Positions 1,661 through 64,000 are shown, counted from the stretch's first letter. The stretch: DNA of 64,000 bases from Solirubrobacterales bacterium (GCA_027306855.1 DAHUYZ010000006.1:375-64374), one strand, 5' to 3'. Translations and numbers: made by a program. The notes: a model not told the origin generated them from the sequence alone.

Positions 1661-2227
1661 CTACTGGCTCGTCTCCTTTTCACCTATACCCAGCAGCGAT
1701 TCCAACCGGGGCAGTAGTCGGTAGGCAAGCCACCCGATAGCCGCGACACCACATCCGATAAATAGAAGTCGCGGGTCGGTGGGGGTCCAGCGTTTTTCTA
1801 GAAACATAAACGCGACGGTCACCCCGACTATAACGGCAGGTACGGCGACTCCGGCATATAGGGCGATCGCGGCTGGTGCACCTCTACGGCGCCAGGTGGC
1901 GAGAAAGGGCTCGAAGTGAACTAGCGAGGCGTAGATGATTAGAAAAGCGGCCGTGCCTCTGAGCATCGCGTCGACTTCGGGACCAAGCTGTCTGTGGAGC
2001 ACAACAAATAGTGATACCCACGCATAGCCTCCCATGGCAAAGGCGAAAAAGGTAATGCCGGTTTCTGCCCACAGACGCGTCGACTCAGATTGGGCGGTGA
2101 GTCGTTCCATCCACCTTAGGCGTGGTCGCGTCAGCGCCAGCATAAGCAACGTGCCGCCAACGATCGCGACTATAACATCACGAGGGTTTACGGGATGGGC
2201 AATCGTGGCTGCAGCGGTAATTGGCAT
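1661..2227 (-). CDS. Hypothetical multi-pass membrane protein
   Basis: About five hydrophobic segments; lower-GC codon usage than the core genes. Confidence 0.6.
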   Translation of the reverse strand: MPITAAATIAHPVNPRDVIVAIVGGTLLMLALTRPRLRWMERLTAQSESTRLWAETGITFFAFAMGGYAWVSLFVVLHRQLGPEVDAMLRGTAAFLIIYASLVHFEPFLATWRRRGAPAAIALYAGVAVPAVIVGVTVAFMFLEKRWTPTDPRLLFIGCGVAAIGWLAYRLLPRLESLLGIGEKETSQ

Positions 2228-2550
2228 ATACGGGCATTCGGCAACATTAGACTACTCCTTGAGCGACTATGGCTACGTAGCTTTGCCGCGCGGAAGAAAA
2301 AGGCTGTGAAAGACCCTTCAAAAGAAGGGACCAACGACCTCGGAAGTAGTAGCCAGAGCCTTGGAGACCTGGCCAAAATAGGCGCTAGACCGCCCTGAAG
2401 GTCGCCGCTTCGGCGTGTCTTAGGTTTCATCGGAATGATCGGCGCGGCCACGGCCAGGTAGTACGTCAAGACCAACCAACCAAGTCGTCGACGAGCTTTT
2501 GCAGGTCGGTCTTCAACGACTCGCTCGAGCGGTCGCAGACGCGGCGCTTG

Positions 2551-2610
2551 CAGAGGATTGCCCGCAGCGCCCACGATCCCCCTTGGTGCGCTCGTGGGCG
2601 CAGGCACTCT
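2551..2610. other. Imperfect hairpin at the accessory/core boundary upstream of tkt
   Basis: CAGAG/CTCTG, TGCC/GGCA and a perfect 10-bp GCGCCCACGA/TCGTGGGCGC stem. Confidence 0.45.
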
Positions 2611-2688
2611 GTCGGGGGCCTGCCGCCAAGCAAACGCCGCCCTACGCGGGCTGACTACCCGCGCCCCAGGCGGGTAGGATCGCACTCG

Positions 2689-4707
2689 ATGCCCGCCACC
2701 AGCGGAGAGGACGTTCGCAGGCTCTCGATCGACACGATCAGAGGCCTCGCCATGGACGCGGTTCAGAAGGCGAACGCCGGCCATCCCGGCACGGCGATGG
2801 CGCTCGCCCCGCTCGCCTACACGCTCTACCGCGACGTCCTGCGCCTCGACCCCGCCGACCCAAGCTGGCCCGGGCGCGACCGCTTCGTGCTGTCCGCCGG
2901 GCACGCCTGCATCCTGCAGTACTCGCTGCTCCATCTCTGCGGCTTCGACCTCTCGCTCGATGACCTGAAGAGCTTCCGCCAGTGGGGCTCGCGCACACCC
3001 GGCCATCCCGAGCGCGGCCACACCCCGGGCATCGAGGTCACGACCGGGCCCCTGGGCCAGGGCATCTCAAACGCCGTCGGCCTGGCGATGGCCGAGCGCT
3101 TTCTGGCCGAGCGCTACAACCGCCCCGGCTGCGAGCTCGTCGACCACCACACATATGTGATCTGCTCGGACGGTGATCTCATGGAGGGCGTATCTCAGGA
3201 GGCCGCCTCGATCGCCGGGCACCTCGGTCTTGGCAAGCTGATCGTCTGCTACGACGACAACCGCATCACGATCGACGGCTCGACTTCGATCTCCTTCGAC
3301 GGCGAGAACCACACCGCCCGCCTCGCCGCCGACGGCTGGCACGTGCAGAGCGTCGCCGACTCCGAGGACACGGCGGCGCTGCTCGCCGCTCTGACGGCCG
3401 CGCGCGAAGAAGCGCAGCGCCCCTCGTTCATCCAGATCCGCTCCCACATCGCCTACCCCGCGCCCAACGCGATCGACACCGCCAAAGCCCACGGCGCCCC
3501 GCTCGGCGAGGAGGAGGTCAGGCTGACCAAGGAAGTGATGGGCTTGCACCCCGAGCGCACCTTCCAGGTCGACGCTCAGGTCTACGAGCACATGAGCCTG
3601 CGCGAGCGCGGTGGCGCTGCCCATGCCGCCTGGCGCGAGCGCGAGCAGGCTTGGCGCAAGCGCCACCCCGAGCTTGCCGGCGAGTGGGACCTGGCGCTGC
3701 AGGGACGCCTGAGCGACGGTTGGGCGCAGGCGCTCCCTCGATTCCAGTCCACCGAGAAGATCGCGACGCGCTCGGCCGGCCAGAAGGCGATGGCCGCGTT
3801 CGCCGAGTTCGCGCCCACCATGGTCGGGGGCGCGGCCGACCTGGTCGAGTCGACCAAGACGACGTTCGAGGGCGCCGGCTACTTCTCGCGCGTGCACTGC
3901 GGGCGCAACGTCGCGTTCGGGATCCGCGAGCACGCGATGGGCGCGATCGTCAACGGGCTCGCCGCCCACGGCGGGATCGTCAAGCCGTACGGATCGACGT
4001 TCCTGATCTTCTCCGACTACATGCGCCCCAGCATCCGCCTCTCCGCGCTGATGGGGCTGCCCGTCGTGTGGGTCTTCACGCACGACTCCGTCGGCCTCGG
4101 CGAGGACGGACCCACGCACCAGCCCGTCGAGCACTTCGCGGCGCTGCGCGCTATCCCCCGGCTGTGGGTGGTCAGGCCATCCGACGCGAACGAGACTTCC
4201 GTCGCCTGGAAGGTCGCGCTGCAGCGGGCTGACGGCCCCGTCGCATTGCTGCTCTCGCGCCAGAACCTGCCCGTGTTCGACCGCTCCGAGCTTGCCTGCG
4301 CCGACGGGCTTGAGCAGGGTGGCTACGTGCTGTGGGAGTCCGGCCCCGACCCCGAGGTCGTACTGATCGCCACGGGCAGCGAGGTCGCCCCGACGCTGCA
4401 GGCGGGGCGCATGCTCTCAGAGCAGGGCACAGCGGCTCGGGTGGTGGCGATGCCGTGCGTGGAGCTGTTCGAAGCGCAACAGGCCGACTACCGCGAGAGC
4501 GTCATCCCCACCGACGTGGGCCCCCGGCTCGCGGTGGAGGCCGGCGTGAGCGCCGGCTGGTGGAAGTGGGTCGGAGATCGCGGCGGCGTGCTCGGGATCG
4601 AGCGTTTCGGAGCCTCCGCACCGGGTAGCACCGTTCTCGAGAAGTTCGGGTTCACGCCCGAGTCGATCGCCGAGCGGGCAAAGGCGCTCGTCGGCCAAAG
4701 GGTCTGA
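2689..4707 (+). CDS. tkt: Transketolase
   Basis: DAVQKANAGHPG, RDRFVLSAGH, TTGPLGQG, SDGDLMEG, FGIREHAM and THDSVGLGEDGPTHQP motifs; start chosen at ATG 2689 after TAGGAT. Confidence 0.97.
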   Translation: MPATSGEDVRRLSIDTIRGLAMDAVQKANAGHPGTAMALAPLAYTLYRDVLRLDPADPSWPGRDRFVLSAGHACILQYSLLHLCGFDLSLDDLKSFRQWGSRTPGHPERGHTPGIEVTTGPLGQGISNAVGLAMAERFLAERYNRPGCELVDHHTYVICSDGDLMEGVSQEAASIAGHLGLGKLIVCYDDNRITIDGSTSISFDGENHTARLAADGWHVQSVADSEDTAALLAALTAAREEAQRPSFIQIRSHIAYPAPNAIDTAKAHGAPLGEEEVRLTKEVMGLHPERTFQVDAQVYEHMSLRERGGAAHAAWREREQAWRKRHPELAGEWDLALQGRLSDGWAQALPRFQSTEKIATRSAGQKAMAAFAEFAPTMVGGAADLVESTKTTFEGAGYFSRVHCGRNVAFGIREHAMGAIVNGLAAHGGIVKPYGSTFLIFSDYMRPSIRLSALMGLPVVWVFTHDSVGLGEDGPTHQPVEHFAALRAIPRLWVVRPSDANETSVAWKVALQRADGPVALLLSRQNLPVFDRSELACADGLEQGGYVLWESGPDPEVVLIATGSEVAPTLQAGRMLSEQGTAARVVAMPCVELFEAQQADYRESVIPTDVGPRLAVEAGVSAGWWKWVGDRGGVLGIERFGASAPGSTVLEKFGFTPESIAERAKALVGQRV

Positions 4708-9134: not shown

Positions 9135-10127
9135 TCACCGCCCGCTTGGTATCGGCGGTGCGTGAACCGGCCTTTGGCGGTAGACGGACGTGAAAGCCCG
9201 TTCGAGCAGGTAGGCGGCCTGGCGCCCCAGTTCGGGCGAGTGCAGCAGCACGACTCCCAGCTCGACGCCGTGGCGCTCGGCGGTCCCGACGAGACACAGC
9301 CCGGCGGCTTCGGTCTCGCCTGTCTTCAGGCCGGTCGTGCCCGGGAAGCCGTAGCGCAGGAGCGGGTTGTTGTTGTACAGGTAGAGCTTGCCCCCCTTGA
9401 TCGGGAAGGGCAGGATCGCGCTCGCGCTGCGCGCTACCGCCGCGATCCTCGGCTGGCGCAGATCGACGGTAGCCAGCTCGGCGAGATCGTCGGCGCACGA
9501 GCTGTTGGCGTTCTCCAGGCCATCGGGCGAGGCGTAGCGCGTGCAGCGCAGGCCGAGCGCCGCGGCCTGATCGTTCATCTCTCGAACGAACGCGCTCACG
9601 CTCCCCGCGCTCGCTTCGGCGAGCGCCACCGCCGCGTCGTTGCCGGAGGGGAGCAGCATGCCGTAGAGCAGTGTCTCGGAGGAGACGCGCTTTCCGAGCG
9701 GGAGCAGGCCGACCTTCGAGCCGGGGGCATCGACTGCGCGCCTGCTTATGCGTACCTGGGCGCTCTGCGGAAGCGAGCGCACCACGAGCAGCGCGCTCAT
9801 CATCTTGGCGAGGCTCGCGATCGGAAGGACCCTCGTCGGGTCGCGCTGCCACAGCACGCGTCCCGTGCGCATGTCGAACAGGAGCCCGGCGCGAGGTGGG
9901 TGGTGGAAGGTGACGTTGACCGCTTCGCTCGGCGCGGTCGGCTCCAGGCGCAGCGGGTGCTCGCCGAGTGGAAGGCCCGTGCGCGAGCGGGCGACGGGTG
10001 CGGGAGAGGCGTGGTGGGCGATCGTCACCTGGTGCGTGCGGTCGTGAGAGTGGAACGCTCCGCTCTCCAGCGCCACCCCGGCGGCGAGCACAAGAGCCAA
10101 CGCGACTCCGATGGCTGCCTTCATCAC
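9135..10127 (-). CDS. D-alanyl-D-alanine carboxypeptidase (peptidase S11)
   Basis: Signal/TM segment; SLAK (SxxK), SGN (SxN) and KTG motifs. Confidence 0.93.
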   Translation of the reverse strand: MMKAAIGVALALVLAAGVALESGAFHSHDRTHQVTIAHHASPAPVARSRTGLPLGEHPLRLEPTAPSEAVNVTFHHPPRAGLLFDMRTGRVLWQRDPTRVLPIASLAKMMSALLVVRSLPQSAQVRISRRAVDAPGSKVGLLPLGKRVSSETLLYGMLLPSGNDAAVALAEASAGSVSAFVREMNDQAAALGLRCTRYASPDGLENANSSCADDLAELATVDLRQPRIAAVARSASAILPFPIKGGKLYLYNNNPLLRYGFPGTTGLKTGETEAAGLCLVGTAERHGVELGVVLLHSPELGRQAAYLLERAFTSVYRQRPVHAPPIPSGR

Positions 10128-10297
10128 CGTGGAGGATTGCGCAAAGACCCGACGATTCCAATTGTGAGGATGAGGAGCACGAAGATCGCGAGCGCCGCCT
10201 CGACCGAGAAGCCCTCCGTGGCGATCGCCGCGATCGTGAGGTAGGCGAAGCCGACGATGACGGCCAGCGCGGCCGCCAGCACGGCGACGCGGGTCAT
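10124..10297 (-). CDS. Small two-TM hypothetical protein (57 aa)
   Basis: ATGA overlaps on both sides; hydrophobic. Confidence 0.65.
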   Translation of the reverse strand: MTRVAVLAAALAVIVGFAYLTIAAIATEGFSVEAALAIFVLLILTIGIVGSLRNPPR

Positions 10298-10698
10298 CCG
10301 GCGATGCCGAGATAGAGCTGCGCCGTGGCCCACACGCCCAGCAGCAGCGCCGCGGGCAGCTCGACTACGCCGGCGAAGAACGGGACGAGCACGAGCGTGA
10401 AGACACGTCCGCGCGGGAACATGACGATGTAAGCGGTAAGCGCCGCCACGGTCGCGCCGCCGCAGGCGATCGGCAGGGCAGCCGTCGTGCTGTCTGAGAA
10501 CGCGAGCGTTCGCAACAACAGCGCAAGCGTCGAGCCGAGCGCGCACAGGCCGAGGAAGCGGACAGGGCCGAGGCGCCCCTCCACGCTTGGCGCCAGCAGC
10601 GCGAGGAACAGAACGTCGAGTAGCGTGGCGATCAGGCTCCAGTGCCTGCTCGGCAGCAGATAGCCCGCGACGCTCGCGGCGATCAGGACGCTCGTCAA
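10294..10698 (-). CDS. Short rhomboid-like membrane protein, catalytic motif degenerate
   Basis: AYIVMFPRGRV...LPAALLLGVW resembles the rhomboid C-terminal half; the GASG motif is replaced by ACGG. Confidence 0.5.
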   Translation of the reverse strand: MTSVLIAASVAGYLLPSRHWSLIATLLDVLFLALLAPSVEGRLGPVRFLGLCALGSTLALLLRTLAFSDSTTAALPIACGGATVAALTAYIVMFPRGRVFTLVLVPFFAGVVELPAALLLGVWATAQLYLGIAG

Positions 10699-10752
10699 TA
10701 GCGGGACGCGCGCATGTGGGAGATTGTCTTTGAGCGGCAGGATCGAGCGAGA

Positions 10753-11718
10753 TTACCCGCTCGCAGCGAGCGGGCCGGTGCCAGGGCGGCGCTGAGGCAC
10801 GTGCTGGTCGGCGTGGTAGCTCGAGCGCACGAGCGGCCCCGCGGCGACGTGGTCGAAGCCGAGCTCATAGGCGGCCTGTTCGAGCGCCGCGAACTCGTCC
10901 GGGTGCCAGTAGCGCACGACCGGGAGGTGGCGCTCCGACGGGCGTAGGTACTGGCCGACCGTCAGCACCTGGACCCCATGCTCGCGCAGGGCTATAAAGG
11001 TTTCAACCATCTCCTCGTGGGTCTCGCCGAGCCCCACCATCAGCCCCGACTTGGTGAGGACCTCCGCGCCTCCCATCTCCTTGGCGGTGCGCAGCACGCG
11101 GCAGGAGCGCTCGAACTTCGAGCCGCGCCGCGCGATCGGGTACAGCCTCGGCACGACCTCGACGTTGTGGTTGAACACGTCCGGTCGCTCGGCGATCACC
11201 TTCGCCAGCGGCATCTCCTGTCCCTGGAAGTCGGGCGTCAATACCTCGACCTGGCAGTCCGGCGCCTGCGAGCGGATCTGGCGGATCACGCCGACGAAGG
11301 CGGAGGCGCCCTTGTCGGGGAGGTCGTCGCGATCGACCGAGGTGATGACCGCGTGGCGCAGGCCCATGCGCGCTACCGAGCGCGCTACGCGAGCAGGCTC
11401 GAGCGGGTCGTTCCACGTCGGCTTGCCCGTCTTCACGTTGCAGAAGCCGCAGCGCCTCGTGCACGTGTCCCCGAGGATCATGAACGTCGCCGTTCCCCTC
11501 TCCCAACACTCTCCGACGTTTGGGCAGGCCGCCTCCTGGCAGACGGTGTGCAGGCTCTCCGAGCGGATCAGCGCCGAGAGCTCGCGATAGCGCGGACTGC
11601 CCGCCGCGGGCACTTTGAACCACGGCGGCTTGCGCTCGCGCAGAGGGCGTACGTTTGGGCCGAGGACCTTCAGCACGTCCATGCCGCCCGGGTTCGAACG
11701 TGATCGAGTGGCGCTCAT
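10753..11718 (-). CDS. lipA: Lipoyl synthase
   Basis: CQEAACPNVGEC and CTRRCGFC radical-SAM motifs; RSSYHA. Confidence 0.97.
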   Translation of the reverse strand: MSATRSRSNPGGMDVLKVLGPNVRPLRERKPPWFKVPAAGSPRYRELSALIRSESLHTVCQEAACPNVGECWERGTATFMILGDTCTRRCGFCNVKTGKPTWNDPLEPARVARSVARMGLRHAVITSVDRDDLPDKGASAFVGVIRQIRSQAPDCQVEVLTPDFQGQEMPLAKVIAERPDVFNHNVEVVPRLYPIARRGSKFERSCRVLRTAKEMGGAEVLTKSGLMVGLGETHEEMVETFIALREHGVQVLTVGQYLRPSERHLPVVRYWHPDEFAALEQAAYELGFDHVAAGPLVRSSYHADQHVPQRRPGTGPLAASG

Positions 11719-12392
11719 GCCGGCGTCAGCTCCCCCTGACGAGCCTCGCAGAAGCAACGCCCCATCAGCTCGGCAAACGCGTCGAAGCCGCCCGCCGGTT
11801 CCTGTCCGAGCTCATTCTGCACGGACGTCATCCTGACCCCCGAGAGCCCGCACGGCACGATCCACTCGAACGGGGCGAGGTCGTTGACCACGTTGACAGC
11901 GAAGCCATGGGTCGTGATCCCGCGTGAGACGTGCACGCCGATCGAGGCGATCTTGCGATCCGCCACCCAGACACCGGTGTAGTCGATGCCCTCGTCCGCA
12001 CGCGAGCGCGCCTCGACCCCGTAGTCGACGATCGCCGCCACGATCGCCGCTTCCATCGTGCGCAGATGCGCGATGACGTCGCCGATGCGCATGATCGGAT
12101 AGCCGACGAGCTGGCCGGGGCCGTGGTATGTGACCTTGCCGCCCCTGTCGGTCGGCACGATCTCGATGCCGCGTGCCCGGTAGAAGTCCTCGCCCAGCGC
12201 CAGCTCGCCGTCTTGCGAGCGCCGCCCGCGCGTGTACACGGGCGGGTGCTCCAGCAAGAGCAGAGTGTCGGGGATCTCGTCGGCAAGCCTGCGCGCCTGC
12301 AGGTCGGCTTGGAGCGCGAGCGCGTCGCGGTAGGGGACGGTGCTTAGGCGGCGAACGTCGATCCGATCGGTGGGCGTATGACTTCGGTCCAT
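11715..12392 (-). CDS. lipB: Lipoyl(octanoyl) transferase
   Basis: LLLEHPPVYTRG, DRGGKVTYHGPGQ and RKIASIG motifs. Confidence 0.96.
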   Translation of the reverse strand: MDRSHTPTDRIDVRRLSTVPYRDALALQADLQARRLADEIPDTLLLLEHPPVYTRGRRSQDGELALGEDFYRARGIEIVPTDRGGKVTYHGPGQLVGYPIMRIGDVIAHLRTMEAAIVAAIVDYGVEARSRADEGIDYTGVWVADRKIASIGVHVSRGITTHGFAVNVVNDLAPFEWIVPCGLSGVRMTSVQNELGQEPAGGFDAFAELMGRCFCEARQGELTPA

Positions 12393-60129: not shown

Positions 60130-60840
60130 TCATCGGCCGGCGGCTTGGCAACGTAAGGGCACGACTTCGGCGAGCTCGGGAGTGCGCTCGCCACGCAGCA
60201 CGCCATGATCGAGCGATAGGGCGCGGTCGGCACCTGAGAGGCCGGTCGCGTCGTCGGTCGCCGTGAGGATGGCGATGCCTTCGTCGGCAAGGGAGCGCAA
60301 CAGCAAGAGGATCTCATCGCGCTGAGAGAGGTCGACGTCGCGGATCGGGTCGTCGACGAGCAGCAGCGATGGCTCTCCTACGAGCGCGCGCGCGAGCGCG
60401 ACGCGCATCGCTTCTGAGCCGTCCAGCTCATGTGGCGCAAACGATGCGCATTCGCTCGCCTGCACCCGCGCGAGCGCTGCGAGGGCTCCTGAGCGCGCTT
60501 TGCGTTCGGAGGCGCCGCGCGCGAGCTGGGTGACGAGGAGCTCGTCGAGGACGCCGCGCGATTCCCCACCGTAGAGCCCGCGCTTGCAGTAGCCGATGCC
60601 GGCGCCGAGCGCTTGGGAGCCGGCCCGCAGCTCGCGTCCCTGAAAACGCACGATGCCCGCGTCGGGCGCCTCGATGCCGGCTGCGATGCGCAGCAGTGTC
60701 GAGCGTCCGCAGCGTCGGCGACCCCAGATCGCGACCAGCTCGCCCTCCTCTACATCGAGGCAGGCGTCGGCGAGCAGTACGTGCTCGCGCGTCCCGTTAC
60801 GCCGCCGCCGGCCGATGTGCCACAGTTCGAGCAGGCTCAT
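60130..60840 (-). CDS. Degenerate ABC ATP-binding-like protein
   Basis: GRRRCGRST (Arg replaces Lys), LDGSE signature, VDDP (no Glu), no H-loop His. Confidence 0.8.
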   Translation of the reverse strand: MSLLELWHIGRRRRNGTREHVLLADACLDVEEGELVAIWGRRRCGRSTLLRIAAGIEAPDAGIVRFQGRELRAGSQALGAGIGYCKRGLYGGESRGVLDELLVTQLARGASERKARSGALAALARVQASECASFAPHELDGSEAMRVALARALVGEPSLLLVDDPIRDVDLSQRDEILLLLRSLADEGIAILTATDDATGLSGADRALSLDHGVLRGERTPELAEVVPLRCQAAGR

Positions 60841-61457
60841 CGCGCGATCGAAGCCAATGTGTTCGCGCTCAGTTGAAGGCGTGCGTAGGCCACCCAGGCG
60901 AGCCGCGCCTCCAGCGCTAGGCGCTCGTCCTCGAGGCATAGGCGCTCGGAGAGCAGCGCGCCCGTGTCGGCGCCATCCCGGCTGTGGCCGCGCGAAGGCG
61001 TGGCCCTGCTTGCCTCGGAGAGGCACGCCTGCTCATAGCGGTCGAGCACGGCGAGCGCGCGATCGGGAGGGAGCATTGCGAGCTGGGAGGCGAACAGTCG
61101 CGAGCGCGTGCGGTCGTGCTCGACATGCGCTACGAGCCACGCTTGGAAGCTCTCGAGGCCCTGCTTGGTGACCCGGTAGTGCAGCTTTGGCTGGCGCGTC
61201 AAGGGGCTGTCGGACGGCAGGACGCGCTGGATGAGCCCCTTCTTTTCGAGCGCGTCGAGCGCGACGTAGATTTGCGAGGGGCTCGACAGTTCGAGCGACT
61301 CGCCGTATGTCCGTTCGAAGCGCTGGACGAGCTCGTAGCCGTAGGAGGCTCGCTGGATCACGAGGCCCAGCAGTGCCCAGTTGATTGGAGAGCGCATCTC
61401 GACGGTCGCCCGCTCGTGCGCTGCGAGCCCAGACTGCGATGCGACCCTCGCTCCCAT
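60837..61457 (-). CDS. PadR-family transcriptional regulator
   Basis: WALLGLV...YGYEL...SQIYVALDALEKKGLI...YRVTKQG; start may be ~61397. Confidence 0.9.
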   Translation of the reverse strand: MGARVASQSGLAAHERATVEMRSPINWALLGLVIQRASYGYELVQRFERTYGESLELSSPSQIYVALDALEKKGLIQRVLPSDSPLTRQPKLHYRVTKQGLESFQAWLVAHVEHDRTRSRLFASQLAMLPPDRALAVLDRYEQACLSEASRATPSRGHSRDGADTGALLSERLCLEDERLALEARLAWVAYARLQLSANTLASIAR

Positions 61458-61500
61458 CTGGGCCAAGACTAGCGCGACCGGCCAGCGCGGGCTACTCACA

Positions 61501-61518
61501 ATCTAGAAACTTCTAGAT
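61501..61518. promoter_or_regulatory. Inverted repeat ATCTAGAA-AC-TTCTAGAT, probable PadR operator
   Basis: Perfect 8-bp arms overlapping a TTCAGA-N18-TAGATT promoter-like sequence on the minus strand upstream of padR. Confidence 0.65.
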
Positions 61519-61706
61519 CGCGCTCTGAAACGTGTGGGTTGTGAGTCTCAGCGGGAGGGCCATCAGCGCTCGGTCGGACAGAGCCTGTGCTGACGTCTGC
61601 GGTAGCCACCGACCCGTTCGCCCACGATGATCTCAGCCGTGGCCCAAGATCTTCTCAGCCGAGAGGAGTATCCCCAGGCGCCGACGCCGCGCCGAGGGCG
61701 TCGTCG

Positions 61707-61812
61707 CTACCGCGAACCCGTCGGGGCGGTACGCCCAACCTGTTTGCAGACGTCGCGCGTCAGGCCGGGACCGATCTCGTTGTGTCGCGGCAGCGCGGCC
61801 ACCTCGTCTTTG
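61707..61812 (-). pseudogene. C-terminal remnant of a HicA-family toxin
   Basis: KDEVAALPRHNEIGPGLTRDVCKQVG matches the HicA xPRHxEI...CKQxG C-terminus; the N-terminus is replaced by repeat copy 1. Confidence 0.65.
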
Positions 61813-62060
61813 GCGGCGCGCCTCCGGCTCGCCCGGCCGATCTCGCTAACCAATCTTCCCCCCTCGTCCCGAACCTCCGGTTTCGGCACAGGAGTGGGAG
61901 TGGCAGTCAAAAGGGCAACGAGAGGTTGCCGTGGAAACTTTCATGGTCGCCTTCGGGCGGCCGGGATTGAAGTAAGTAACGAGTAACAAGTAACAGTGAA
62001 AAGTAAATCTCACTCAACCTCTGTCCTGGACCATGCCTTCTAGTCCGATAGCTGAGCGCC
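61809..62060 (+). repeat. Structured cassette-boundary element, copy 1
   Basis: Shares ordered blocks with copies 2 and 3: CGCTA-CCAATC, hairpin ending ACAGGAG, CAGTCAAAA, GGCAAC-N5-GTTGCC, CTTTCATGGTCGCC..ATTGAAGTAAGTAAC, CCATG and CTGAGCG. Confidence 0.92.
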
Positions 62061-62101
62061 TCAACCCGCGTCTACGCGCGATAGCTCTCAACGGCGGTCG
62101 C

Positions 62102-62515
62102 CTACCCCTCGCCGTCAGGCTCGGCGTCCGCCGGCTGGACGATTGTTTTGGCCCAGGCGATAGCCTCGGTGGCCCATTTGAGCGCCTGGTCGCGGTCGAG
62201 GCCGATCGGGACTTCAGATCCGTATCGCTCGTCGCGAGCGAATGGGTTCAGGTCTTCGACGTCGTCAAGCGCGGAAGGCAACTCGATCCCAGATTCCGCC
62301 GAGAAGCTCCTGAGGCGTTCGAGGTCGTGAGTGAAGGGGAATTCGGTTTCCTTTACCGCAAGCACGGCCTTGATGGCCTTCTCGACGGCTTGATGGCAGT
62401 GGAAACCGACGATTGGATCGGCGATCCCTTCGACTCGCAACATCGATTTAGCGGCAAGCTCATCTTCTTGGGCGGCACCGAGCAGCCGACGTGCGAGGTC
62501 GCCGTTCGTGGCCAT
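62102..62515 (-). CDS. HEPN domain protein (MNT-HEPN toxin partner)
   Basis: FHCHQAVEKAIKA, THDL and RY motifs; TAATG coupling to MNT. Confidence 0.9.
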   Translation of the reverse strand: MATNGDLARRLLGAAQEDELAAKSMLRVEGIADPIVGFHCHQAVEKAIKAVLAVKETEFPFTHDLERLRSFSAESGIELPSALDDVEDLNPFARDERYGSEVPIGLDRDQALKWATEAIAWAKTIVQPADAEPDGEG

Positions 62516-62829
62516 TATGCCGCGATCTCCCGGCCCTCACGCAGGGCGGAGTTGATTACGGTGCCGTACACGTCGCGCCACTCGCGCACGCTATCCTCGC
62601 TTCTGACGATCACATCGGCCCACACGCCGAGCCCTTTGAGGGTTCTGTGCAGCCGGACCGACTCCTTGGCCACGTCCTTCACCGACGGCTCGATCACGAG
62701 GAAGTCCAGATCTGAGTGCTTGCCGGCCTCGCCGCGGGCGTGGGAGCCGAACAGGATCACGCGGCTGCCCGACGGCGCGGCGGCGAGTATGCGCTGTCCC
62801 GCCTCCTGTATCACGGCGTCGTCGAACAT
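62515..62829 (-). CDS. Minimal nucleotidyltransferase (MNT)
   Basis: ILFGSHARG and SDLDFLV motifs; ATG 7 nt after TACAAT. Confidence 0.92.
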   Translation of the reverse strand: MFDDAVIQEAGQRILAAAPSGSRVILFGSHARGEAGKHSDLDFLVIEPSVKDVAKESVRLHRTLKGLGVWADVIVRSEDSVREWRDVYGTVINSALREGREIAA

Positions 62830-62903
62830 GCCGGGGATTGTACCGCGCCGTGGGGCCAAAGCCACGGGAGCGCTCTCCAAGGAGGCCCTTCCGGACGCGT
62901 CCC

Positions 62904-63110
62904 CGCTACCCAATCTTCCCCGCTCGTCTCGCACCTCCGGTGTCGAGACAGGAGCGGCAGTCAAAAAGGCAACGACAGGTTGCCGTGCAAACTTTCATGG
63001 TCGCCTTCGGGCGGCCAGGATTGAAGTAAGTAACAAGTAATGAGTAAAGCAAGTCTCGATCTACTCACTATCAATCTGAACCATGTCTTCCACCCCAACA
63101 CCTGAGCGCC
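62904..63110 (+). repeat. Structured cassette-boundary element, copy 2 (left edge may extend to ~62870)
   Basis: See copy 1. Confidence 0.92.
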
Positions 63111-63216
63111 TCTTGTGAAATTGGACGAACGAACTTTTCTGAGCAGCGCCGACTCACCGCGCTCGCTTCTTGCGGCAGGACGCGACGCGGCGCCCGCCTG
63201 TGAGGCTCATCGGGCC

Positions 63217-63420
63217 CTACCGGGGCCGGTACATGTCGCGCGTGACGCGGACGTTGGCTCGCAGACCCGTGGTGGCATACTTCAGGGCCGCCCGTTTTTC
63301 CTCGGGGGTCTTCGCCTTCGCGGGCACGAAGAGCTCGGCCAGCTCCTCGGGGCTGAGCCGCTCGATCTTCCCGTTGCTGGTCCGGGCTTTGCTGGTCTGC
63401 ACTTTGGCCATGCTCATCAT
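63217..63420 (-). CDS. Small hypothetical protein, orphan antitoxin-like (67 aa)
   Basis: AGGAG RBS 7 nt before ATG; helical with LSPEEL and KTPEEK motifs; no partner toxin follows. Confidence 0.6.
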   Translation of the reverse strand: MMSMAKVQTSKARTSNGKIERLSPEELAELFVPAKAKTPEEKRAALKYATTGLRANVRVTRDMYRPR

Positions 63421-63501
63421 GGTAGCTCTCCTGTCGGTCGACACGAAGCGACCGGATGCGATCGCCGTCCATGCACGCTACGCCCCGCAGGGGATGGGGA
63501 A

Positions 63502-63768
63502 TTTGCGGCGCGCCTCGGCCTCGGCCGATCTCCGAGGCGCCGAAGGCGCCCCGCTACCAATCATTTCACCTCGTCCCGCACCCGCAGGGCTGTCGGGACA
63601 GGAGCGCCAGTCAAAAGGGCAACCACAGGTTGCCGTGGAAACTTTCATGGTCGCCTGCGGGCGGGCGGAATTGAAGTAAGTAACAAGTGACGAGTAAAGT
63701 GAAAATCAAGTCTCTATCTACTCACTATCAATCTGAACCATGCAACCCTTTATCTCAATAGCTGAGCG
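63502..63768 (+). repeat. Structured cassette-boundary element, copy 3
   Basis: See copy 1; also shares TTTG(G)CGGCGCGCCTC..CGGCCGATCTC upstream with copy 1. Confidence 0.92.
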
Positions 63769-63817
63769 TTTCGTTGATGGAGGTGCGCTCGGGGCCATCG
63801 CGTTCCCCGGCGTTTCC

Positions 63818-64000
63818 TCAGCAGCTCGTGGCCGCGTTCAGGGCCCGGCAGACTTCGCTCATCTTTGCGGGGCCCAGCGAGGTGATGCGTTCGATCAGGA
63901 AGATCTTGTCCGCCGCATCGATCTGATCGGCGTTCAACGCACAGGCGCGCGGCATGCCGTCCTCGGGTCCGAGCTCGACCTCGGTGGGGAGACCGCGGAT
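63818..64000 (-). CDS. mazF: PemK/MazF-family toxin, C-terminal part (truncated by window edge; not in the ORF track)
   Basis: Translates IRGLPTEVELGPEDGMPRACALNADQI...ERITSLGPAKMSEVCRALNAATSC*, typical of actinobacterial MazF. Confidence 0.85.
   Translation of the reverse strand: MRGLPTEVELGPEDGMPRACALNADQIDAADKIFLIERITSLGPAKMSEVCRALNAATSC

What the first reader, a model, noticed from the sequence alone, without database searches (positions are those of the whole stretch)
61863..63604. Compensatory base changes show the repeat is selected for secondary structure
Hairpin P1 varies in sequence but keeps pairing. Copy 1: CCGAA-CC-TCC-GG-T-TTCGG. Copy 2: GTCTCG-CACC-TCC-GGTG-T-CGAGAC. Copy 3: GTCCCG-CA-CCC-GCA-GGG-C-TG-T-CGGGAC. 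An extra unpaired T is kept on the 3' arm. P2 GGCAAC-N5-GTTGCC varies only in the loop. P3 GGTCGCC-TTCG-GGCGGCC has a C(UUCG)G tetraloop and a G:U pair favouring + strand RNA. In copies 2 and 3, GATTGA-AGTAAGT (GAATTGA in copy 3) can pair with ACTCACT-A-TCAATC. Inference: a multi-stem ncRNA, or a folded ssDNA substrate with extrahelical bases as used by integron or HUH enzymes.
Basis: seen in the sequence. Interest (0 to 1): 0.78.

Follow-up and report, generated by a model that had tools for sequence, protein, structure and literature searches.

The report
Hairpin-rich spacer between toxin-antitoxin cassettes
The three repeats are copies of a species-specific, roughly 220-base hairpin-rich spacer that separates small toxin-antitoxin gene cassettes. 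It most likely stops transcription between cassettes and gives them a place to recombine, and the evidence that it is a structured RNA gene is weak.

Summary
The hairpins P1, P2 and P3 are present in all three window copies, and in three more full copies elsewhere in the same genome. P1 carries two true compensatory changes and a conserved bulged T. With six related copies this is not significant: 32 of 500 shuffles do as well. P2 never varies in its stem. Strand clues conflict: P3 favours the + strand, while P1 and the T-run after P2 favour the - strand.

No Rfam family matches. No homologue was found in 120 same-genus genomes, or in the genome, metagenome, viral, plasmid and phage collections. 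The genome bin holds no integron integrase and no HUH transposase.

The repeat is a discrete module of about 220 nt (CGCTAAC...CTGAGCGYYTC). It occurs only in co-oriented toxin-antitoxin cassette arrays upstream of padR operons. On the gene-sense (-) strand it follows each cassette with a G-poor tract, then a train of hairpins, one of which looks like a terminator. The next cassette's own promoter comes after that.

One array lies between 36-38-nt target duplications at a site that a relative has unoccupied. Homologous PIN cassettes elsewhere sit in arrays punctuated by unrelated repeats.

Best reading: an inter-cassette terminator/insulator that doubles as a recombination substrate. An attC-like site of an unknown recombinase is not excluded.

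The parts
60837..61499 (-). padR-family regulator, first gene of a padR-ABC operon. The cassette array ends just upstream of it.
   Evidence: Pfam PF03551, E=1.2e-10. ORF list. A PadR-operator-like palindrome TCTAGAAACTTCTAGA lies at 61502-61517.
61707..61843 (-). hicA toxin fragment, truncated exactly at the left edge of module copy 1.
   Evidence: BLASTP against the intact HicA of the same array aligns the fragment to residues 16-63, E=1e-12. The intact protein matches PF07927.
61844..62062 (+). Module copy 1 (CGCTAAC...CTGAGCGCCTC). P1 is at 61866-61889, P2 at 61914-61930, P3 at 61945-61962, and the GTAAC-type heptad tract at about 61963-62012.
62102..62515 (-). HEPN toxin gene of cassette 2.
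   Evidence: PF05168, E=2e-15.
62515..62829 (-). Minimal nucleotidyltransferase (MNT) antitoxin gene. It appears leaderless, with TACAAT 7 nt upstream of the ATG.
   Evidence: PF01909, E=8e-10. The promoter was read from the sequence.
62893..62902 (.). P0, a short GC palindrome next to copy 2. The other copies carry longer and different palindromes here, for example GGACGCGCT-N4-AGCGCGTCC.
   Evidence: Alignment; folds.
62904..63112 (+). Module copy 2. P1 is at 62926-62949, P2 at 62968-62984, P3 at 62999-63016, and the heptad tract at about 63017-63055.
63154..63210 (-). Remnant of a PIN toxin gene: an in-frame internal deletion leaves 18 codons.
   Evidence: Comparison with the intact 197-aa PIN cassette on C211.
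63217..63444 (-). Putative 67-75-aa antitoxin of the PIN cassette. No Pfam family matches it.
   Evidence: It is a conserved partner of the PIN gene on C211 and on other contigs, where 61-aa genes sit upstream of the PIN homologues.
63536..63550 (.). P0 of copy 3 (GGCGCC-GAA-GGCGCC).
63552..63772 (+). Module copy 3. P1 is at 63573-63599, P2 at 63618-63634, P3 at 63649-63666, and the heptad tract at about 63667-63716.
63818..64000 (-). MazF/PemK-like toxin gene of the next cassette. It runs off the window; the array continues for about 2.9 kb to the contig end.
   Evidence: PF02452, E=1.6e-12. Contig sequence.

Best explanation
The repeat is a discrete, modular inter-cassette element of about 220 nt, running from CGCTAAC to CTGAGCGYYTC. 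A variable GC palindrome, P0, lies beside it. The element punctuates co-oriented toxin-antitoxin cassette arrays that were inserted upstream of padR operons in one genome bin. The bin is probably a Solirubrobacterales-like actinobacterium.

Read on the gene-sense (-) strand, each module begins 20-100 nt after the last stop codon of a cassette. It then supplies, in order:
1. a conserved box;
2. a 45-60-nt G-poor pyrimidine tract, which is the heptad repeats;
3. a train of GC hairpins (P3', P2', P1', P0'). P2' is followed by a T-run and looks like an intrinsic terminator.

The next cassette's own promoter follows, with a -10 box TAC(C/A)AT and a leaderless ATG.

I infer two functions. First, the hairpins act as terminator/insulator hairpins that keep the autoregulated cassettes transcriptionally separate. 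That would explain why pairing tends to be kept. Second, the 220-300 bp of shared sequence serves as the substrate on which cassettes are duplicated, deleted and exchanged.

Shown: the anatomy, the strand relations, the restriction to arrays, the sharp module ends, the mosaic types, and the insertion next to an empty site in a relative.

Inferred: the terminator/insulator activity and the recombination route.
For: - All full and partial copies lie on four array contigs. All are antisense to the cassette genes.
- P2 on the - strand is scored terminator-like in each of the four C226 copies.
- The gene-sense strand of the heptad tract has 2-7 G per 50 nt, against a genome mean of 16.9. Only 67 windows in the whole genome have G<=3.
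- An unrelated module in another PIN-cassette array (L074) also places a tract of 0-1 G per 50 nt right after each cassette.
- Each cassette has its own -10 box and leaderless start just beyond the module (sequence).
- The small ORF inside the module is not under purifying selection: pN 0.142 against pS 0.039.
- Recombination footprints are present. The same PIN cassette sits behind three different modules. There is an in-frame PIN deletion. hicA is cut exactly at a module edge. Types A, B and C share only the part from ACCATG onward.
- The C211 array lies between 36-38-nt duplications of a site that relative G009 has uninterrupted.
Against:
- On the - strand P3 carries a C.A mismatch in five of six copies. 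Its UNCG loop makes sense only on the + strand.
- The P2 stem has only 6 bp, and its T-run is broken in copy C211_b.
- The single-stranded linker between P2 and P3 is invariant. A plain terminator does not need that.
- rho was not found in this bin, although 19 of 21 relatives have it.
- The module ends are sharp, and the break point at ACCATG recurs. This looks more site-specific than homologous recombination would give.
Confidence: 0.5

Rival explanations
1. The module is an attC-like attachment site of a cassette-capture system run by an unidentified site-specific recombinase. Cassettes would excise as circles carrying one module and re-insert at another module, or at the padR-upstream site, with the crossover at or near A^ACCATG. 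The hairpins and the bulged T would be recognition features of folded or duplex DNA.
For: - The array is co-oriented and consists of small cassettes.
- The module has sharp ends. hicA is cut exactly at the left end. Two different cassettes are joined after CTGAGCGYYTC in two contexts each.
- The ends are imperfect inverted repeats: CGCTAACCAATC against the reverse complement CGCTCAGCTATC, 9 of 12 matching.
- Three different left halves (types A, B, C) are joined to the same right half at the same position.
- The C211 array is an insertion flanked by 36-38-nt direct repeats, and a relative has the site empty.
- The same cassette family occurs in arrays of other organisms.
- A group II intron lies in the array, antisense to the cassettes, as IIC-attC introns do in integrons.
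Against: - There are no R''/R' boxes and no single long hairpin, and the module is 205-217 nt long.
- No IntI reaches the cut-off and no HUH enzyme was found.
- The tyrosine and serine recombinases of the bin are not next to any array.
- Break points are not all at one position. The 5p copy breaks in the heptads, and homology to the right of CTGAGCG extends to variable lengths.
- The cassettes carry their own promoters.
Confidence: 0.25
2. The module encodes a + strand structured non-coding RNA, transcribed antisense to the cassettes. Such an RNA could be a cis-antisense regulator or a relic 5' leader. P1-P3 would be its functional stems.
For: - The U.G pairs of P3 and the UUCG/UGCG tetraloops are meaningful only on the + strand.
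- The + strand folds somewhat better against shuffles; the mean z-score is about -3.0, against about -2.3 for the - strand.
- The unpaired linker GUGNAAACUUUCAU is invariant.
- P1 carries two compensatory changes.
Against: - No Rfam match at E<=1.
- No promoter-like site on either strand and no + strand terminator.
- Two copies have a C.A mismatch in P1 on the + strand, which reads as U.G on the - strand.
- The covariation is not significant, 32/500.
- No homologue in any other genome allows a real covariation test.
Confidence: 0.12
3. The repeats are functionless scars. Under this reading they are copies of one ancestral intergenic or gene-start segment, duplicated each time a cassette was inserted, and the hairpins are simply inherited.
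For: - Relatives show such scars. In G032, two cassettes upstream of padR are flanked by 62-nt duplicates of the padR operator region.
- In L077, cassettes are separated by 248-nt copies of one gene's 3' end.
- Homology to the right of CTGAGCG stops at variable points of one parent sequence.
Against: - No intact parent sequence was found in the bin or in relatives.
- The 38-nt core is 100% conserved while loop positions vary.
- The extreme G-depleted tract, and its analogue in an unrelated module, suggest function.
Confidence: 0.1

Closest known systems
Sedentary chromosomal integron arrays and CALINs (attC sites such as the Vibrio cholerae repeats)
   Same: Both are co-oriented arrays of small, often toxin-antitoxin, cassettes separated by array-specific repeats that are highly similar to each other and carry inverted-repeat ends and hairpins. 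A group II intron lies in the array, antisense to the cassettes.
   Different: There are no R''/R' boxes. The fold is a set of branched local hairpins, not one long hairpin. The module is 205-217 nt long, against 57-141 nt for attC. No IntI was found. The cassettes have their own promoters. Break points are not all at one position.
REP/BIME and similar extragenic palindromic repeats
   Same: Both are mosaics of GC-rich palindromes in intergenic DNA that can act as terminators or mRNA stabilisers and as recombination substrates.
   Different: REPs are short and scattered genome-wide, and are tied to RAYT transposases. This module is long and composite, is confined to four array contigs, and the bin has no Y1/RAYT gene.
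Intrinsic and Rho-dependent terminators
   Same: On the gene-sense strand there is a GC hairpin followed by a T-run (P2), and a G-poor pyrimidine tract directly after the stop codon.
   Different: The unit is 220 nt long, conserved, and has four hairpins, heptad repeats and an invariant linker. That is far more than termination requires. Activity was not tested, and rho was not recovered in the bin.
Repeat-punctuated toxin-antitoxin hot spots noted earlier in this scan (CPR, Verrucomicrobiota and others; unpublished AI notes)
   Same: The organisation is the same: different toxin-antitoxin pairs between same-direction, lineage-specific terminator-plus-promoter-like repeats, without integron hallmarks.
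   Different: The phylum and the repeat sequence are different. Here there is also an empty-site comparison, 36-38-nt flanking duplications, and three module types sharing one right half.

Membership tests
Integron attC site | Inverse core R'' (RYYYAAC) at the 5' end and core R' (GTTRRRY) at the 3' end | tested here: not met
   The ends read CGCTAAC/CGCTACC/CGCGACC and CTGAGCG(YYTC). No GTTRRRY lies at the junction.
Integron attC site | The two ends pair into one long imperfect hairpin with extrahelical bases; length 57-141 nt | tested here: not met
   The consensus folds on both strands are sets of local hairpins, and the ends pair over only 4 bp on the + strand. The length is 205-217 nt. The one conserved bulged T lies inside the local hairpin P1.
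Integron (system) | IntI-type tyrosine recombinase in the genome, next to the array | tested here: not met
   The best TIGR02249 score is 72 bits, against a cut-off of 265, and the control genomes give similar sub-threshold hits. None of the hits is on an array contig. Caveat: the bin is incomplete and the array ends at contig breaks.
Known RNA families (Rfam 15) | Covariance-model match | tested here: not met
   No match at E<=1 over the repeats on either strand.
HUH/Y1 (IS200/IS605, RAYT) hairpin substrates | Y1 transposase in the genome; the hairpins are element ends or dispersed REPs | tested here: not met
   PF01797 gives 0 matches in the bin. The copies are confined to array contigs.
MITE | Terminal inverted repeats, target-site duplications and dispersed copies | tested here: not met
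   The ends match as inverted repeats at 9 of 12 positions in some copies. No target-site duplication is present and the copies are not dispersed.
Intrinsic terminator | GC-rich stem-loop followed by a T-run on the sense strand downstream of a gene | tested here: met
   P2 on the - strand has a 6-7-bp stem and a tail of (C/T)TTTTGAC in the four C226 copies. C211_a has TTTTCAT and C211_b has GTCTTG. Termination activity itself cannot be tested here.
Rho-dependent terminator (rut site) | C-rich, G-poor, unstructured tract on the nascent RNA; rho present | tested here: inconclusive
   The tract has 2-7 G and 13-18 C per 50 nt on the sense strand. rho is absent from the bin but present in 19 of 21 relatives.

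The most novel reading that the evidence does not exclude
The module is the attachment site of a cassette-capture system that is not an integron, found in high-GC actinobacteria. Toxin-antitoxin cassettes would move as circles between modules and padR-upstream sites through a fixed crossover at about A^ACCATG. The recombinase would be one not yet linked to cassette arrays. The hairpins and the conserved bulge would be its recognition features.
Probability: 0.2. Interest if true: 0.75.

Novelty: new variant of a known kind. Interest (0 to 1): 0.42.

Why it matters
Integrons are the only well-understood platform that stores small gene cassettes between structured repeats, and they are reported as essentially absent from Actinobacteria. 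Here an actinobacterial genome shows the same logic: co-oriented toxin-antitoxin cassettes, an array-specific structured repeat, insertion next to an empty site in a relative, and the same cassette found behind different repeats. None of the integron hallmarks is present.

If the module is a recombination site, this would be a second kind of cassette platform. It would bear on the open question of how array-specific sites become attached to cassettes.

If the module is only a terminator/insulator, it is a clear example of how toxin-antitoxin islands are kept modular. It also cautions that hairpin covariation among a few paralogous copies is not evidence for an RNA gene.

Tried and rejected
- **Rfam cmscan.** Run at E<=1 on the window end and on all four array contigs. 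The only matches were the group II intron.
- **tRNA/tmRNA scan.** None found.
- **Homologue searches for the repeat.** All came back empty:
  - BLAST in 60 relatives.
  - Covariance model R1 in 120 same-genus genomes and in 8 fetched loci.
  - Two exact patterns in genome contigs and in metagenome contigs.
  - One pattern in viral contigs.
  - blastn against plasmids and phages.
  - A protein search with the translated repeat.
- **Small ORF MKV... on the - strand.** Rejected as coding, because pN exceeds pS.
- **The + strand stub ATG...CTGAGCG.** Its substitutions are mostly non-synonymous, two copies stop after 11 codons, and no intact gene was found.
- **Repeat end as the 5' end of the C255 group II intron.** Rejected. 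Comparison with the G007 homologue puts the intron start about 75 nt downstream.
- **Introns of relatives.** They do not sit in such arrays.
- **padR-upstream regions of eight relatives.** None contains the module. One gave the empty site and one showed a different cassette duplication.
- **Integron integrase and HUH transposase.** Not found. Serine recombinases are present but not linked to an array.
- **Sigma-70-type promoter scan.** No sites on either strand.
- **Exact-protein look-up of the HEPN gene.** It found only a 1-kb contig that breaks inside the repeats.
- **The look-up of sequencing runs and read laying.** Both were closed, so no transcript or junction data could be obtained.

Full report
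**What is in the window.**
Reading 61500-64000 and the repeat finder show three same-strand copies of a repeat of about 210-220 nt. They lie at 61844-62062, 62904-63112 and 63552-63772. The copies are 78-90% identical to each other. A 38-nt core pattern occurs three times against zero expected.

- P1 at 61866-61889, 62926-62949 and 63573-63599.
- P2 at 61914-61930, 62968-62984 and 63618-63634.
- P3 at 61945-61962, 62999-63016 and 63649-63666.

**Copies elsewhere in the genome.**
The window is C226:375-64374 of a 2.23-Mb bin in 259 contigs, with 67.7% G+C. The array runs on to the end of contig C226.
- The genome holds six full copies: four on C226 and two on C211.
- Partial copies carry only the 3' half. 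They lie on C226, C199, C211 and C255.
- No copy lies anywhere else in the bin.

**Test of the compensatory-change claim.**
The six full copies were aligned (A2) and folded on both strands.
- P1 has two pairs changed on both sides: C-G to A-T in copy 1 and C-G to T-A in copy 2.
- A loop insertion in copy 3 adds pairs to P1.
- The bulged T is invariant.
- Two copies have a C.A mismatch in P1 on the + strand, which reads as U.G on the - strand. Copy 1 has a C.C mismatch.
- The P2 stem never varies.
- P3 has a U.G pair on the + strand, which is C.A on the - strand. It becomes U-A in one copy, and another copy has a broken pair.

Counting on the stated structure gives 96.5% of cells paired. However, 32 of 500 shuffles reach the observed covariation. 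Both strands fold better than shuffled sequence.

The hairpins are therefore real, and pairing tends to be kept. Six paralogous copies do not show selection, and the strand signals conflict.

**Searches for relatives of the repeat.** All came back empty:
- Rfam at E<=1.
- BLAST in 60 relatives.
- Covariance model R1 in 120 same-genus genomes.
- Two exact patterns in the genome and metagenome collections.
- Viral contigs, plasmids and phages.
- A protein search with the translated repeat.

A proper covariation test is therefore impossible with the data at hand.

**Context.**
Every gene between the repeats is on the opposite (-) strand. The cassettes are HEPN-MNT, a PIN gene with a small antitoxin, MazF with an antitoxin, ParE with an antitoxin, HicAB and a DUF2283 protein. 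The arrays on C226, C211 and C199 each end just upstream of a padR gene.

Each cassette has its own TAC(C/A)AT box 7 nt before a leaderless ATG. This lies just beyond the module and a variable GC palindrome, P0 (sequence).

**The module read on the gene-sense strand.**
The module follows each cassette's stop codon. It supplies:
- A G-poor pyrimidine tract with 2-7 G per 50 nt. The genome mean is 16.9, and only 67 windows in the genome have G<=3.
- Hairpins P3', P2', P1' and P0' after the tract.
- A T-run after P2'. P2' is scored terminator-like in all four C226 copies.

The 30-codon ORF inside the module is not coding: pN is 0.142 and pS is 0.039.

rho is missing from the bin but present in 19 of 21 relatives. 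The bin is also much smaller than its relatives, which are 3-4.5 Mb. Absences in it therefore weigh little.

**Module limits and mosaic structure.**
The left end, C|CGCTA, is sharp. In copy 1 it abuts a hicA gene that has lost its first 15 codons. The right end is CTGAGCGYYTC|. The PIN cassette and a ParE-type gene end are each joined there in two different contexts.

There are three module types. All three share the part from ACCATG to CTGAGCG.
- Type A is the full module.
- Type B has a CACAAAGCTTGTG palindrome in place of P0-P3.
- Type C has padR-side sequence on its left.

Types A and B also share the heptads. Other break points exist: one lies in the heptads, and homology to the right of CTGAGCG stops at variable points.

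The window's PIN gene has an in-frame internal deletion.

**Evidence that the arrays are insertions.**
On C211, three cassettes lie between two copies of a 36-38-nt sequence. Relative G009 has this sequence once, uninterrupted, upstream of its padR gene (alignment A5). In relative G032, two cassettes upstream of padR are flanked by 62-nt duplicates of the padR operator region.

**The same cassette elsewhere.**
PIN homologues at 75-82% identity are common. One is labelled Solirubrobacteraceae, which is my only clue to taxonomy.

Their contigs carry co-oriented toxin-antitoxin or Abi arrays punctuated by unrelated repeats.
- In L074 there are six copies of a module whose sense strand has 0-1 G per 50 nt. 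Where gene positions were read, it lies right after the cassette.
- In L077 there are four copies of a 248-nt gene 3' end.

**Recombinases.**
No IntI reaches the cut-off and no Y1/HUH enzyme was found. Two large serine recombinases and several Xer-like genes lie elsewhere in the bin.

**Group II intron.**
C255 carries a complete group II intron on the repeat's strand. It matches RF01999 and RF00029 and encodes a reverse transcriptase with a maturase domain. Comparison with the G007 homologue places its 5' end about 75 nt beyond the module. Related introns in other genomes are not in such arrays.

**Conclusion.**
The best-supported reading is an inter-cassette terminator/insulator module that also serves as a recombination substrate (confidence 0.5). 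An attC-like site of an unknown recombinase remains a live rival (0.25). A + strand ncRNA (0.12) and a functionless duplication scar (0.1) are less likely.

Noticed in passing
L020 (= contig C255) 834-2775, + strand: A complete group II intron lies about 75 nt downstream of a partial module, on the same strand as the repeats and antisense to the cassettes. It matches RF01999 at 908-1030 and RF00029 at 2698-2773. Its ORF at 1432-2682 encodes a reverse transcriptase with a maturase domain and no endonuclease domain. The placement recalls IIC-attC introns in integrons.
   Followed up: partly
L018 (= contig C211) 263-296 and 2701-2734; L071 (relative G009) 1683-1715: Three cassettes on C211 lie between two copies, about 87% identical, of a 36-38-nt sequence ending in GCTGGACTAGA. 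The relative has this sequence once, uninterrupted, upstream of its padR gene. This gives an occupied-versus-empty site pair.
   Followed up: yes
window 63154-63210 (-): The PIN toxin gene is reduced to 18 in-frame codons by an internal deletion, while its small antitoxin gene (63217-63444) is intact. The same deleted form lies at the start of contig C199, behind a different module type.
   Followed up: partly
window 61502-61517: The perfect-armed palindrome TCTAGAA-AC-TTCTAGA lies directly upstream of padR. Similar YTAGAA-NN-TTCTAR palindromes precede padR orthologues in relatives. It is probably the PadR operator.
   Followed up: no
L067 (relative G032) about 1755-3488: Two tandem cassettes of about 860 bp upstream of padR are flanked by 62-nt duplicates of the padR operator/promoter region. 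The padR upstream region looks like a cassette insertion hot spot in this genus.
   Followed up: partly
L074 1042-10364 and L077 6418-13072 (metagenome contigs with PIN homologues): Co-oriented toxin-antitoxin/AbiE arrays are punctuated by unrelated repeat families. One is an extremely C-rich, G-free tract plus a small hairpin. The other is the repeated 3' end of a glycine-rich gene plus a hairpin.
   Followed up: partly
window 61963-62058, 63017-63108 and 63667-63768: Within each module, two adjacent tracts have opposite strand skew. The heptad tract is C-poor on the + strand. The following 50 nt (TCTCACT...CCTGA) is G-poor on the + strand. The heptad number differs between copies by whole 7-nt units.
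   Followed up: no
G007:C5 (L050) about 9450-12050: In a relative, the closest homologue of the intron (79% RT identity) has a second, different group II intron nested in or abutting it.
   Followed up: no
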